The notes below the pieces were generated by a model, which was not told the DNA's origin, did no database searches, and was given only the letters and a program-made list of their open reading frames with translations. The position numbers and the translations under genes are program-made. A stretch of 31,551 nucleotides of DNA from Minisyncoccia bacterium (lineage in GTDB: Bacteria; Patescibacteriota; Minisyncoccia; Phycocordibacterales; UBA9973): positions 1-31,551 of the forward strand of contig JBBRSF010000001.1 in the NCBI GenBank assembly GCA_038245685.1, read 5' to 3'. This document shows, piece by piece, positions 7,359 to 26,129 of the stretch (position 1 is the first letter of the stretch; each line of letters opens with the position of its first letter).

Positions 7359-7388
7359 CAAAAAACTCCCACTGCTGGGAGTTTTTTG
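7359..7388 (+). terminator. Terminator-like hairpin after tRNA-Glu
   Basis: CAAAAAACTCCC/GGGAGTTTTTTG, a perfect 12-bp stem with a 6-nt loop. Confidence 0.75.
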
Positions 7389-7520
7389 CATTTCGCCGTG
7401 AAGACGGAAGTATGTTTTTCTACCAAGAAAAACAACTGAGTCCGGGGCTGGAAAATTTGCTTTCGACGGAAAGCAAATTATTGTGGCTCACATTATTTTT
7501 GCACGCGAAGCGTACAAATC
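7389..7520. repeat. Multi-hairpin element downstream of tRNA-Glu
   Basis: Stems TGTTTTTC/GAAAAACA, AATTTGCTTTC/GAAAGCAAATT and TTTG.ACGC-GAA-GCGT.CAAA. The CTGAGTCCG motif is shared with the tsaD insert. Confidence 0.6.
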
Positions 7521-24962: not shown

Positions 24963-26129
24963 ATGAGAATTTTAAGCATTGAGACGTCGTGCGACGATAC
25001 GGGCATAAGTATAATGGAAGCAAAAGGAGGCATCACAAATGCTTCTTTTAAAGTTCTCGGTGACACCGTCTCTTCACAAATTGATATTCATATCCCCTTC
25101 GGCGGAGTTTATCCTGCCCTTGCTAAACGTGAGCACATCAAGAACCTTCCGATCGTCCTTGAAAAAACTTTAAAGAAAGCAAGACTAGAAAACAAAAAGA
25201 AACCTGTAGATGTGATATCGGTGACAATGGGCCCCGGGCTCGAACCAGCTCTCTGGACAGGGATAGTCTTCGCTAAAGAACTCGGCAAGAAATGGGATGT
25301 GCCAGTTATCCCCGTAAACCATATGGAAGGTCATATTCTTTCTGTATTTGGAAAAAATAAAGGTCAATTTAAAATTACTACCAAGAAAAATCCTATTTTA
25401 TCTCTTTTAGTCTCTGGAGGACACACTGAACTCGTTCTCGTAAAAAAATGGGCTGATTACAAGATCATAGGGCAAACCCTCGATGATGCAGTCGGAGAAG
25501 CCTTCGACAAGGTTGCCCGCATGCTCGGTCTTCCCTATCCTGGCGGACCACAGATTTCCAATCTAGCACAAGAAGCCAGAGCCTTTAGCGAGCGAAGCAT
25601 TGCGCAGGTTGACGAACCGAGCATAGCAAAAAATCAGCAGATTTTTATGCGCGCTGAGTCCGCGAAAGGCTCTAGCGCATCTTTCTCTCTTTCTCTTTCT
25701 TTGCCTCGCCCTATGCTTTATAGTAAAAATTTTGATTTTTCATATTCGGGACTCAAAACAGCTGTTTTATATTTAATTAAAGACTTAGGAGGATTAGAGA
25801 AAATAAGCGAAAAGACAAAAGCACAAATTGCACTTGAATTTGAAAATGCAGCTATCGAATGTCTAATTAAAAAAACTGGGAAAGCAATCGACGCCTATAA
25901 AATAAAAACATTGATAGTAGGCGGTGGAGTATCAGCGAACAAATACTTGCGGAGCGAAATGAAAAAGCTTGCCAAAGAAAAGAAAGTAGAACTTCTATTC
26001 CCTGCCAAAGAACTTTCGACTGACAACTCCATCATGATAGGCATAGCTGGATATTTAAAATATCTAAAAATAAAAAACAAAATCCCAAAAGTGGAAAGTA
26101 TCAAGGCGACTGGTAATTTAAGGCTTTAA
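24963..26129 (+). CDS. tsaD: tRNA N6-adenosine threonylcarbamoyltransferase TsaD, with an in-frame insertion
   Basis: Motifs ILSIETSCDDT, GGVYP.LA.REH, GPGL, NHMEGH, LLVSGGHTEL, DDAVGEAFDKVAR.LGLPYPGGP, FSYSGLKT, GGGVSAN, TDNSIMIG. Start reset from 24855 to 24963. Confidence 0.97.
   Translation: MRILSIETSCDDTGISIMEAKGGITNASFKVLGDTVSSQIDIHIPFGGVYPALAKREHIKNLPIVLEKTLKKARLENKKKPVDVISVTMGPGLEPALWTGIVFAKELGKKWDVPVIPVNHMEGHILSVFGKNKGQFKITTKKNPILSLLVSGGHTELVLVKKWADYKIIGQTLDDAVGEAFDKVARMLGLPYPGGPQISNLAQEARAFSERSIAQVDEPSIAKNQQIFMRAESAKGSSASFSLSLSLPRPMLYSKNFDFSYSGLKTAVLYLIKDLGGLEKISEKTKAQIALEFENAAIECLIKKTGKAIDAYKIKTLIVGGGVSANKYLRSEMKKLAKEKKVELLFPAKELSTDNSIMIGIAGYLKYLKIKNKIPKVESIKATGNLRL
25575..25676. 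mobile_element. 102-nt palindromic element inserted in frame in tsaD
   Basis: Terminal inverted repeat GCCAGAGCCTTTAGCG/CGCGAAAGGCTCTAGC (14 of 16 match). Length is exactly 34 codons. Confidence 0.65.

What the first reader, a model, noticed from the sequence alone, without database searches (positions are those of the whole stretch)
25575..25676. Palindromic element inserted exactly in frame in tsaD
Seen: 102 nt (34 codons, starting and ending on codon boundaries) bounded by a 16-nt inverted repeat with 14 matches, containing GCGAAGC, an AAAAATC/GATTTTT hairpin and CTGAGTCCG. The last two features recur behind tRNA-Glu. There are 44 residues between LA and LPRPM. Removing the element leaves 10, close to the usual TsaD spacing. 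Established: TsaD is essential in most bacteria, and Rickettsia palindromic elements are the precedent for repeats that insert in frame into surface loops of conserved proteins. Inference: an RPE-like family of selfish mini-elements is active in this lineage, using tRNA 3' flanks and tolerant coding loops and creating new protein sequence. Removal at the RNA level is an alternative.
Basis: partly seen in the sequence, partly recalled or inferred. Interest (0 to 1): 0.82.

Follow-up and report, generated by a model that had tools for sequence, protein, structure and literature searches.

The report
In-frame palindromic repeat element in tsaD
The extra 34 codons in this ultra-small bacterium's essential tsaD gene are one copy of a small hairpin-forming DNA repeat that is scattered through its relatives' genomes, between genes and in frame inside housekeeping genes, much like the palindromic elements of Rickettsia.

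Summary
Window 25575-25676 is a 102-nt, codon-aligned palindrome inside tsaD that solved TsaD structures lack.

The tRNA-Glu "recurrence" is at best a decayed copy (9.3 bits, E 0.04).

A covariance model of the Y-shaped core finds:
- 5 good copies in this genome: tsaD and fmt in frame, 3 intergenic;
- copies in 147 of 151 genomes of the genus (1-30 each);
- copies in 78 of 151 genomes of the order;
- copies in only 5 of 150 across the rest of the phylum.

Other hosts are uvrD, tgt, ileS, leuS and mnmA. Copies lie in both orientations and several frames, always open. Evolution keeps the fold (13 of 14 pairs covary), not the peptide. AlphaFold2 gives the insert pLDDT under 50.

The outer stems are specific to each locus. 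One filled/empty comparison shows that the stem contains an inverted copy of host flank.

HUH (Y1) transposase genes are present but show no association (odds ratio 0.8), so how the element moves is unknown. No RNA data exist to exclude removal from the transcript.

This scan has noted similar in-frame palindromes in other Patescibacteria genomes. I found no paper describing them.

The parts
24963..26129 (+). tsaD coding sequence (388 aa), the host gene
   Evidence: ORF. Pfam PF00814 TsaD, 3.3e-78. 8000 homologs, the best named ones annotated TsaD.
25575..25676 (+).
   Evidence: Sequence. Fold -43.7 kcal/mol, z -3.0. No counterpart in solved TsaD structures. AF2 pLDDT <50 for residues 215-241.
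25575..25590 (+). Left arm of the outer stem; its first codons GCC AGA are the conserved Ala-Arg of the TsaD motif LAxEAR, so are probably host sequence
   Evidence: I8, 14/16 complementary. Alignment of homologs.
25661..25676 (+). Right arm of the outer stem
   Evidence: I8.
25595..25658 (+). Conserved Y-shaped core, the part shared with all other copies
   Evidence: Covariance model R1: 70.8 bits (this copy was in the training set). 59/64 identical, by eye, to an intergenic copy in genome G125 that was not used for training (L073). The two hp1 differences compensate each other.
25607..25618 (+). Hairpin 1: 4-bp stem GGTT/AACC with loop GACG, flanked by CGCAG and GAG
   Evidence: The stem covaries (GC, CG, UA, AU); the loop is invariant in 10 aligned copies.
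25629..25646 (+). Hairpin 2: 7-bp stem AAAAATC/GATTTTT with loop AGCA
   Evidence: All 7 pairs show compensatory changes across copies.
25654..25662 (+). CTGAGTCCG, a motif of the Y1 subfamily (xxGAGTCCG in 4 of 4 Y1 copies aligned)
7379..7444 (+). Possible decayed relative behind tRNA-Glu: hairpin 1 degenerate, hairpin 2-like GTTTTTCT-ACCA-AGAAAAAC, then CTGAGTCCG. Not established.
   Evidence: Model R1 with filters off: 9.3 bits, E 0.04.

Best explanation
The insert is one copy of a multi-copy, gene-less palindromic repeat family of the Nomurabacteria/Paceibacteria branch of Patescibacteria.

Anatomy. A copy has a conserved core of about 65 nt that folds as a three-way junction. Hairpin 1 has a 4-bp stem and a GACG loop, framed by CGCAG...GAG. 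Hairpin 2 has a 7-bp stem of free sequence and an AGCA loop. A long outer stem encloses the core. Its inner part belongs to the subfamily and its outer part is specific to the locus.

Distribution. Copies land, or survive, mostly just after stop codons between genes. They also sit inside genes where three conditions hold: the added length is a multiple of three, the frame used has no stop, and the site is a tolerant loop. In tsaD the copy is read through and adds about 34 residues of disordered loop between helix GGPxISxLAxEAR and LPRPM. The peptide is a by-product: selection or mechanism keeps the nucleic-acid fold, not the amino acids.

Shown here: family membership, distribution, in-frame residence, fold covariation, both orientations, fast turnover at the same loops, and locus-specific stems.

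Inferred: translation, from frame and stop statistics only.

Inferred with low confidence (about 35%): how it spreads. I favour movement as a single-stranded hairpin with a replication-coupled strand switch. The new 3' end folds back on the palindrome and copies the adjacent host flank backwards, which builds the outer stem. Existing hairpin tips then become preferred landing or replacement sites. No dedicated transposase could be tied to the element.
For: Family:
- Model R1 hits 147/151 genomes of the genus, about 1450 copies.
- It hits 78/151 genomes of the order (69/131 genera).
- It hits only 5/150 others in a phylum-wide sample, which also serves as a specificity control.
- The exact 30-base Y2 core occurs in at least 120 loci of Patescibacteria MAGs.
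- In the window's own genome, tsaD and fmt carry copies in frame and 3 copies are intergenic.

In-frame residence:
- The top hits lie in uvrD, tgt, ileS, leuS, mnmA, tsaD and an M1 peptidase.
- 73 of 81 Y2 copies lie in ORFs.
- All 13 filled tsaD alleles in 24 genomes of the genus keep one open frame, with loop lengths from 50 to 64 aa.

Fold kept, peptide not:
- 13/14 pairs have compensatory changes.
- The same core is read in two orientations, 33 on the gene's strand and 40 on the other, and in several frames.
- The core of L011 is the reverse complement of the core of L005 at the same tsaD site.

Turnover:
- Presence/absence on a TsaD tree needs 22 changes, against 22.8 for shuffled labels.
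- One protein carries two copies in tandem (P0079).

Disordered loop:
- AF2 gives pLDDT 88 overall and <50 for residues 215-241.
- Solved structures have nothing there.

Locus-specific stems:
- In G125 the outer stem has a median of 31 pairs.
- The outermost 12 nt are unique in 31/33 copies, while the innermost 12 nt are shared in 17/33.
- G113 has empty sites where G125 is filled.
- At the purF|purQ junction the native AAAATAAYTAAY is kept as one arm, and its inverted copy is new DNA.

A subfamily fitted to genes:
- By hand translation of one representative each, GC-rich Y2 is open in 4-5 of 6 frames and Y4 in 2 of 6.
- In G125, Y2 is 5/5 coding, and all but one of about 18 Y4 copies lie outside long ORFs.
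Against: - No RNA or protein data exist. The only run holding this DNA is a DNA run kept as contigs, so translation is inferred.
- Copies are related to each other, so covariation and strand asymmetry partly reflect descent. Palindrome arms can also be homogenised mechanically rather than by selection.
- The flank-copy step rests on one clean filled/empty junction at about 80% identity.
- At the other junction a full element with its own arms was inserted and no flank copy is evident.
- No target-site duplication, no replication-strand bias (22:12, not significant) and no linked enzyme were found, so the mobility mechanism is open.
- This genome's 5 copies are too diverged for BLAST to link them, so recent activity here is not shown.
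Confidence: 0.8

Rival explanations
1. The family is mobilised in trans by an HUH (Y1) tyrosine transposase of the IS200/IS605-RAYT kind. The enzyme would recognise the hairpins in single-stranded DNA, as in REP/RAYT systems.
For: - ORFs of about 225 aa with PF01797, an HFH (HUH-type) motif and a QGxYKS tyrosine motif occur in 110/151 genomes of the genus. Some genomes have up to 14, and this genome has 2.
- The element-forward strand folds better than its complement in 62/75 Y2 copies and 33/34 G125 copies, as expected if one strand is recognised.
- No target duplication was seen, which fits this enzyme class.
Against: - Across the order the 2x2 table (my hand tally of the handle lists) is 45 with both, 33 with the element only, 46 with Y1 only and 27 with neither. 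The odds ratio is 0.8.
- 20 genus genomes with no Y1 hit average 9.5 copies, against 9.6 overall.
- Y1 genes are not flanked by the element. There is no model hit on contig C40 of this genome, and the nearest copy in G125 is 14 kb away.
- There is no lagging-strand bias (22:12, and in the other direction).
Confidence: 0.2
2. The element is a structured RNA or DNA motif useful to the host, for example an mRNA stabiliser or terminator at gene 3' ends or a protein-binding site. On this view the tsaD copy is an exapted or regulatory structure within the mRNA.
For: - 27/34 copies in G125 are intergenic, although 89% of that contig is coding.
- 17 of 20 copies in tandem gene contexts lie nearer the upstream gene's stop codon, within 7-50 nt.
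- Three copies lie between genes of one pur operon.
- The fold and the loop sequences are conserved.
Against: - Orientation relative to transcription is random: 7 same against 13 opposite for intergenic copies (my hand tally) and 33 against 40 for coding copies. The better-folding strand is therefore often not the transcript.
- Presence at a given site has no phylogenetic signal, and close relatives have empty sites.
- There is no Rfam match.
- Copy number per genome ranges from 0 to about 35 within one genus.
Confidence: 0.08
3. The 102 nt are removed after transcription or translation (intron-like or intein-like), so TsaD is made without the insert.
For: The strong hairpin would bring the two junctions together. 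No direct RNA or protein evidence excludes this.
Against: - Every coding copy examined keeps the frame and has no stop. Removal would not require this. For 13 tsaD alleles of different lengths, chance alone would give about (1/3)^13.
- Copies in genes lie in both orientations, which a self-splicing RNA could not tolerate.
- There is no Rfam hit, including to group I and II introns.
- 34 residues with no conserved junction residues cannot be an intein.
Confidence: 0.04
4. The insert is a lineage-specific TsaD loop that grew in place, and its palindromy is incidental or made by local template-switch mutation alone.
For: Short hairpins with no core exist at this site in some relatives (L015, L016, L018, L021). 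Palindromes can grow by fold-back copying.
Against: - The same 65-nt core occurs at hundreds of unrelated loci and genes.
- The tsaD core is 92% identical (by eye) to an intergenic copy in a genome whose TsaD is only 69% identical.
- Six other families of the same order have plain short loops at this site.
Confidence: 0.02

Closest known systems
Rickettsia palindromic elements (RPEs; Ogata et al. 2000/2002, Claverie and Ogata 2003, as summarised in PMC10969869 and PMC3733652)
   Same: - Gene-less palindromic repeats of about 100-150 nt in a reduced genome.
- Many are inserted in frame in unrelated housekeeping genes.
- They are also found in intergenic DNA.
- No transposase has been assigned.
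- The inserted peptide is compatible with the protein fold.
   Different: - A different phylum, and sequence similarity was not tested.
- The review states that each RPE encodes a conserved peptide. Here the same core is read in both orientations and several frames, and only the fold is kept.
- The core is a three-way junction with two conserved loops.
- The outer stems are locus-specific and partly made from host flank.
- The same protein loops are hit or replaced again and again, with no phylogenetic signal.
REP/BIME elements and RAYT transposases (REPtrons), including the CGTC-tagged REPs (PMC3733652)
   Same: - Short palindromic repeats, mostly just downstream of genes.
- Some lie inside genes, often repair and replication genes.
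- CGTC REPs also lack a dedicated transposase.
- The tetranucleotide GACG/CGTC is the most conserved feature here too.
   Different: - REPs are 20-40 bp single hairpins with the tag at one end of the palindrome. Here GACG is the loop of a separate 4-bp hairpin inside a 65-nt branched core.
- RAYT-like genes are present but are neither adjacent nor associated.
MITEs with terminal inverted repeats and target-site duplications (for example Correia, ERIC, RUP; review PMC10969869)
   Same: Non-autonomous, multi-copy and hairpin-forming when transcribed. They are occasionally fused in frame to ORFs.
   Different: - No clear target-site duplication at the two junctions examined.
- The terminal repeats are not element-borne: the outermost 12 nt are unique in 31/33 copies.
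- No parent insertion sequence was identified.
[quoted passage not shown]
   Same: The coding DNA has dyad symmetry, is translated, and shows a punctate distribution suggesting mobility.
   Different: PARCELs are tandem arrays of a conserved 25-residue amphipathic motif in accessory membrane proteins. Here single copies sit in loops of core enzymes and the peptide is not conserved.

Membership tests
Dispersed palindromic repeat family of this lineage (model R1) | Core with hairpin 1 (GACG loop, CGCAG...GAG frame) and hairpin 2 (AGCA loop) in the right order and spacing | tested here: met
   70.8 bits. The copy was in the training set, but by eye it is 59/64 identical to an untrained copy (L073).
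Dispersed palindromic repeat family of this lineage (model R1) | Multiple copies at unrelated loci, with specificity of the model | tested here: met
   5 good copies in the own genome. 147/151 genomes of the genus. 5/150 others in the phylum-wide sample.
Rickettsia palindromic elements (RPE-1 to RPE-10) | Sequence similarity to an RPE consensus | not tested
   No RPE sequence was at hand from a tool. The taxon and core architecture differ, so I claim 'works like', not membership.
Rickettsia palindromic elements | In-frame residence in unrelated housekeeping genes plus intergenic copies | tested here: met
Rickettsia palindromic elements | Each family encodes a conserved peptide (PMC10969869) | tested here: not met
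   The same core is read as GVSQADxPRGSA..DSDP or as GSLS..ALPLGSSACETP, and in other frames.
REP / RAYT (REPtron) | A 20-40 bp single hairpin tagged at one end by GTAG or CGTC | tested here: not met
   Branched 65-nt core. GACG is a hairpin loop, not an end tag.
REP / RAYT (REPtron) | A RAYT gene flanked by the repeats, or co-occurring with them | tested here: not met
   No model hit near Y1 genes. Odds ratio 0.8 across 151 genomes of the order.
MITE (DDE-type) | Element-borne terminal inverted repeats and a direct target-site duplication | tested here: inconclusive
   Two filled/empty junctions at about 80% identity show no clear duplication. The outer arms are locus-specific. More and closer pairs are needed.
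IS200/IS605-derived palindromic elements | Orientation bias tied to the replication strand | tested here: not met
   In G125, ori lies near 112 kb and ter near 490 kb by GC skew and gene orientation. The split is 22:12, not significant, and only one genome was examined.
Group I / group II intron or other Rfam RNA family | Match to a curated covariance model | tested here: not met
   No hit overlapping 25575-25676 at E up to 10.
Intein | A splicing domain of at least about 130 residues with conserved junction residues | tested here: not met
   34 residues of variable sequence in several frames.

The most novel reading that the evidence does not exclude
These elements spread without a transposase of their own. 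A hairpin-driven, replication-coupled strand switch would write an inverted copy of the host flank next to the core, and hairpin tips would then become landing or replacement sites.

One GC-rich sublineage (Y2) is open in 4-5 of 6 frames in both orientations. It would have specialised in living inside essential genes, where imprecise deletion is lethal. It would thereby be continually rewriting surface loops of core enzymes across a large part of the Patescibacteria.
Probability: 0.25. Interest if true: 0.8.

Novelty: new variant of a known kind. Interest (0 to 1): 0.62.

Why it matters
In-frame palindromic elements are known mainly as a curiosity of Rickettsia. Finding a far larger case would make this a general way in which reduced genomes acquire new protein sequence. 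The case here has four features:
- about 1450 copies in 151 sampled genomes of one genus;
- copies in half the sampled genomes of an order;
- the same loops of tsaD, tgt, uvrD, fmt and ileS hit repeatedly;
- conservation of the fold rather than the peptide.

There are practical consequences. These inserts inflate and scramble alignments of marker genes used for CPR phylogeny. They can mislead gene callers and domain models. They also mark loops that tolerate arbitrary insertions.

The locus-specific stems made from host flank point to a mobility mechanism unlike the classical cut-or-copy transposition of MITEs.

Tried and rejected
- BLAST of the 102 nt against the own genome found only itself. 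The family is visible only to a structure-aware model.
- An Rfam scan found nothing at the element.
It gives only a weak model hit.
- Public reads: one DNA run kept as contigs and no RNA.
- Replication-strand bias in a 672-kb contig was 22:12, not significant.
- Orientation relative to the upstream gene was 7:13, not significant.
- No convincing target-site duplication was found at the filled/empty junctions or at the ends of Y4 copies.
- Y1/HUH transposase association was absent at genus and at order level.
- I tested whether 'intergenic' copies are really introns splitting one gene. The flanking ORFs of 5 copies are complete and different proteins.
- The TAA reported inside the tsaD match of G016 is just an earlier natural stop, so that gene is not broken.
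- Coding filled/empty pairs for tgt and uvrD failed. The near relatives are not empty but carry other palindromes.
- Organism names via cluster look-up were truncated. The lineage was inferred from record titles instead.
Full report
**What is in the window.** tsaD runs 24963-26129 on the + strand (388 aa; Pfam TsaD 3e-78). Position 25575 is the first base of codon 205, so the 102 nt to 25676 make exactly 34 codons. They are bounded by a 16-nt inverted repeat with 14 matches. They contain GCGAAGC, the hairpin AAAAATC-AGCA-GATTTTT (25629-25646; 0.11 expected by chance) and CTGAGTCCG (25654-25662). As RNA, 25565-25686 folds into a Y shape: a long outer stem and two inner hairpins, -43.7 kcal/mol, z = -3.0. 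The complement folds almost as well. Rfam has no match there. In solved TsaD structures (8iey, 4wq5, 4ydu, 6n9a) residues 207-245 of this protein have no counterpart, only 3-5 residues. An AlphaFold2 model built on 108 homologs has mean pLDDT 88.1, but below 50 for residues 215-241.

The claimed recurrence behind tRNA-Glu is a 9-mer at chance frequency (4 hits against 3.6 expected). It sits beside an ordinary terminator hairpin of other sequence. The family model later gave a weak full-length hit there (7379-7444, 9.3 bits, E 0.04). It may be a decayed copy, and I do not count it.

**The tsaD loop in relatives.** I aligned 120 TsaD homologs at 63-79% identity.
- About a quarter have a short loop between GGPxISxLAE and LPRPM.
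- The rest carry 25-60 extra residues that fall into a few recurring but mutually unrelated peptides.
- One protein (P0079) carries two in tandem.

At the DNA level, 13 of 24 genomes of the same genus carry an insert. Every insert is a long palindrome.
- Ten of the 14 insert-bearing alleles, counting the window's own, share one architecture: a variable outer stem, hairpin 1 (4-bp stem, GACG loop, framed by CGCAG and GAG) and hairpin 2 (7-bp stem of free sequence, AGCA loop).
- Four of these ten lie in the opposite orientation. The core of L011 is the reverse complement of the core of L005 at the same site.
- Thirteen of the 14 modelled base pairs show compensatory changes.
- Some relatives keep only a short hairpin (L015, L016, L018, L021). 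Others, and six other families of the order, have a plain short loop.

The 'different peptides' are therefore the same nucleic-acid element read in different frames and directions.

**It is a dispersed family.** BLAST of the 102 nt finds nothing else in the 574-kb genome. A covariance model of the 65-nt core (R1) does better.
- In the window's own genome it finds 5 good copies. These are tsaD, a copy in frame in fmt (contig C15; Pfam Formyl_trans_N), two intergenic copies on C13, and one beside a tRNA gene on C44.
- It hits 147 of 151 genomes of the genus, 1-30 copies each at the stricter filters and about 1450 in all.
- It hits 78 of 151 genomes sampled across the order, in 69 of 131 genera.
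- It hits only 5 of 150 others in an even sample of the phylum. This doubles as a specificity control.

The exact 30-base core of the commonest coding subfamily (Y2) occurs in at least 120 loci of public MAGs. Those shown (80 of the 120) are labelled Nomurabacteria, Kaiserbacteria, Paceibacterota, Parcubacteria, Minisyncoccia or Patescibacteria, auto-labelled Saccharibacteria, or simply 'bacterium' / 'uncultured bacterium'.

The window's core is, by eye, 59/64 identical to an intergenic copy in G125 (L073). The two hairpin-1 differences compensate each other. The TsaD proteins of the two genomes are only 69% identical.

**Where copies sit.** The best 30 hits in the genus are mostly inside long ORFs: tsaD, uvrD/pcrA (two sites), tgt (two sites), ileS, leuS, mnmA and an M1 aminopeptidase. 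The aminopeptidase example rests on the unpublished genome G076.

Of 81 Y2 copies, 73 lie in ORFs.
- They are read as GVSQADxPRGSA..DSDP when on the gene's strand (33 copies) and as GSLS..ALPLGSSACETP when on the other strand (40 copies).
- Further hosts are fmt (the same site as in this genome), uvrB, ksgA, rluA and def, assigned by motif only.
- A minority of these ORFs in GC-rich genomes may be spurious.

A full census of G125 (672-kb contig, 89% coding) gives 34 copies: 7 inside genes and 27 intergenic.
- Of 20 copies in tandem gene contexts, 17 lie nearer the stop of the upstream gene, 7-50 nt from the core.
- The flanking ORFs of five such copies are complete and different genes (purE|purH, purD|purN, purF|purQ and others). 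They are not split genes.

Subfamilies differ. By hand translation of one representative each, GC-rich Y2 is open in 4-5 of 6 frames. In G125 it is 5/5 coding. AT-richer Y4 is open in 2 of 6 frames, and all but one of its about 18 copies lie outside long ORFs.

**Translated or removed?** No RNA data exist. The only run holding this DNA is a sediment DNA run kept as contigs. The indirect evidence favours translation.
- All 13 filled tsaD alleles of the genus keep one open frame although loop lengths range from 50 to 64 aa.
- Every gene-internal copy examined is stop-free.
- Gene-internal copies lie in both orientations, which an RNA-level splicing element could not tolerate.

**Turnover.** On a TsaD tree with the insert columns removed, presence/absence needs 22 changes against 22.8 for shuffled labels. 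Insert type needs 67 against 71 (64% of branches have SH-aLRT of 80 or more). At this depth there is no phylogenetic signal. The loop is gained, lost or replaced faster than the protein diverges.

In tgt and uvrD, near relatives of G125 keep recognisably homologous stem arms, but the core is of another kind altogether. This suggests that cores are replaced at the tip of a resident hairpin.

**The outer stem.**
- In G125 the outer stem has a median of 31 pairs, and the whole palindrome is 106-182 nt.
- The outermost 12 nt of the arm are unlike any other copy in 31 of 33 copies. The innermost 12 nt are shared with another copy in 17 of 33.
- Stems run into host codons. In the window's tsaD copy they include GCC AGA, the conserved Ala-Arg. 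In L003 they include the E-L-R codons. In uvrD they include L-S of LSEIAVLYR. In L096 they include the stop codon of the upstream gene.

G113, about 80% identical, has empty sites at two pur-operon copies of G125.
- At purF|purQ the native AAAATAAYTAAY persists as the outer right arm, and G125 has new DNA that is its inverted copy.
- At purD|purN a full Y4 element with its own consensus arms is inserted, with no clear target duplication.

So at least sometimes the inserted DNA includes a backwards copy of the host flank.

**How it moves.** The element-forward strand folds about 6 kcal/mol better than its complement in 62/75 Y2 copies and 33/34 G125 copies. Copies are related, so this is a property of the family consensus. 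It hints at function as a single strand.

Y1/HUH transposase ORFs (PF01797, about 225 aa, with an HFH motif and a QGxYKS tyrosine motif) are common: 110/151 genomes of the genus, 2 in this genome. But nothing ties them to the element.
- They are not next to copies.
- Twenty genomes without them average 9.5 copies, against 9.6 overall.
- Across the order the association is nil: 45 with both, 33 element only, 46 Y1 only, 27 neither, by my hand tally of the handle lists (odds ratio 0.8).
- Orientation against the replication fork in G125 is 22:12, not significant.

I therefore commit only weakly, at about 35%, to a replication-coupled strand-switch and fold-back route. I give 20% to an HUH enzyme acting in trans.

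**Comparison with what is known.** The closest analogue is the Rickettsia palindromic elements. These are about 150 bp, in ten families, with many copies in frame in unrelated metabolic genes (PMC10969869). Intragenic REPs are also close, many of them in replication and repair genes, as are the CGTC-tagged REPs that lack a dedicated transposase (PMC3733652).

The differences are:
- a branched core;
- GACG as a loop rather than an end tag;
- no conserved peptide;
- stems specific to each locus;
- repeated hits on the same loops.

Full-text searches found no description of such elements in Patescibacteria.

This scan has noted related in-frame palindromes on other Patescibacteria genomes several times, so within the scan this is a further instance rather than a first sighting.

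**Data caveat.** Tallies include the unpublished genomes G076, G139 and G147 (3 of 151). Apart from the aminopeptidase example, no claim depends on them.

Noticed in passing
L006, L009, L012 (tsaD loop of genomes G005, G021, G016): A second, unrelated kind of palindrome occupies the same tsaD loop. It has hairpins CCCCTCCTT..AAGGAGGGG, GGTGG..CCACC and GCCC-TAAA-GGGC, and is read as PLL..GGG..LKGTPxxE.
   Followed up: no
L275 (G113 tgt), L277 (G113 uvrD), L278 (G072 uvrD): At the tgt and uvrD sites that hold Y2 cores in G125 and G068, near relatives keep homologous 16-20 bp stem arms. The cores inside them are quite different and are not matched by R1. The same arms hold different cores.
   Followed up: partly
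G125 contig C1, e.g. 516455 and 518783 (L256); 10 copies on the contig: A separate 26-28-nt GC-rich palindromic repeat, CCTCGCCCGTAGGGCTAYGGCCGAGG, is present at two pur-operon sites in G125 and missing at both in G113. It has 0 copies in the window's genome.
   Followed up: partly
G125 C1 505154, 516523, 518661 (L256): Three copies of the Y4 subfamily sit between consecutive genes of one purine-biosynthesis operon (purE|purH, purD|purN, purF|purQ), each just after a stop codon.
   Followed up: yes
L043:804-3065 (ileS ORF of G114) and L060:1027-3063 (leuS ORF of G007): The open frames of these aminoacyl-tRNA synthetases also hold a His_Phos_1 domain (ileS) and a NUDIX domain (leuS). These could be fusions, or insertions in the editing region.
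   Followed up: no
G000 contigs C40:1029-1352 and C10:12254-12505: This genome has two ORFs of about 224 aa with a Y1_Tnp (HUH) domain. Such ORFs reach 14 copies in some genomes of the genus, and their own ends and cargo are uncharacterised.
   Followed up: partly
window 25677-25705: A CT-rich low-complexity tract (TCTTTCTCTCTTTCTCTTTCT, read as SFSLSLSL) directly follows the palindrome. Relatives have FSFS or FSLS there. TTTTCT is the complement of AGAAAA (Arg-Lys) at the other side of the loop in many relatives, though the window itself reads AGAGCC there. This is a possible pre-existing micro-palindrome.
   Followed up: no
G000 contig C44:217-282 (-): One copy of the family lies directly beside the 5' end of a tRNA gene on the opposite strand.
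   Followed up: no
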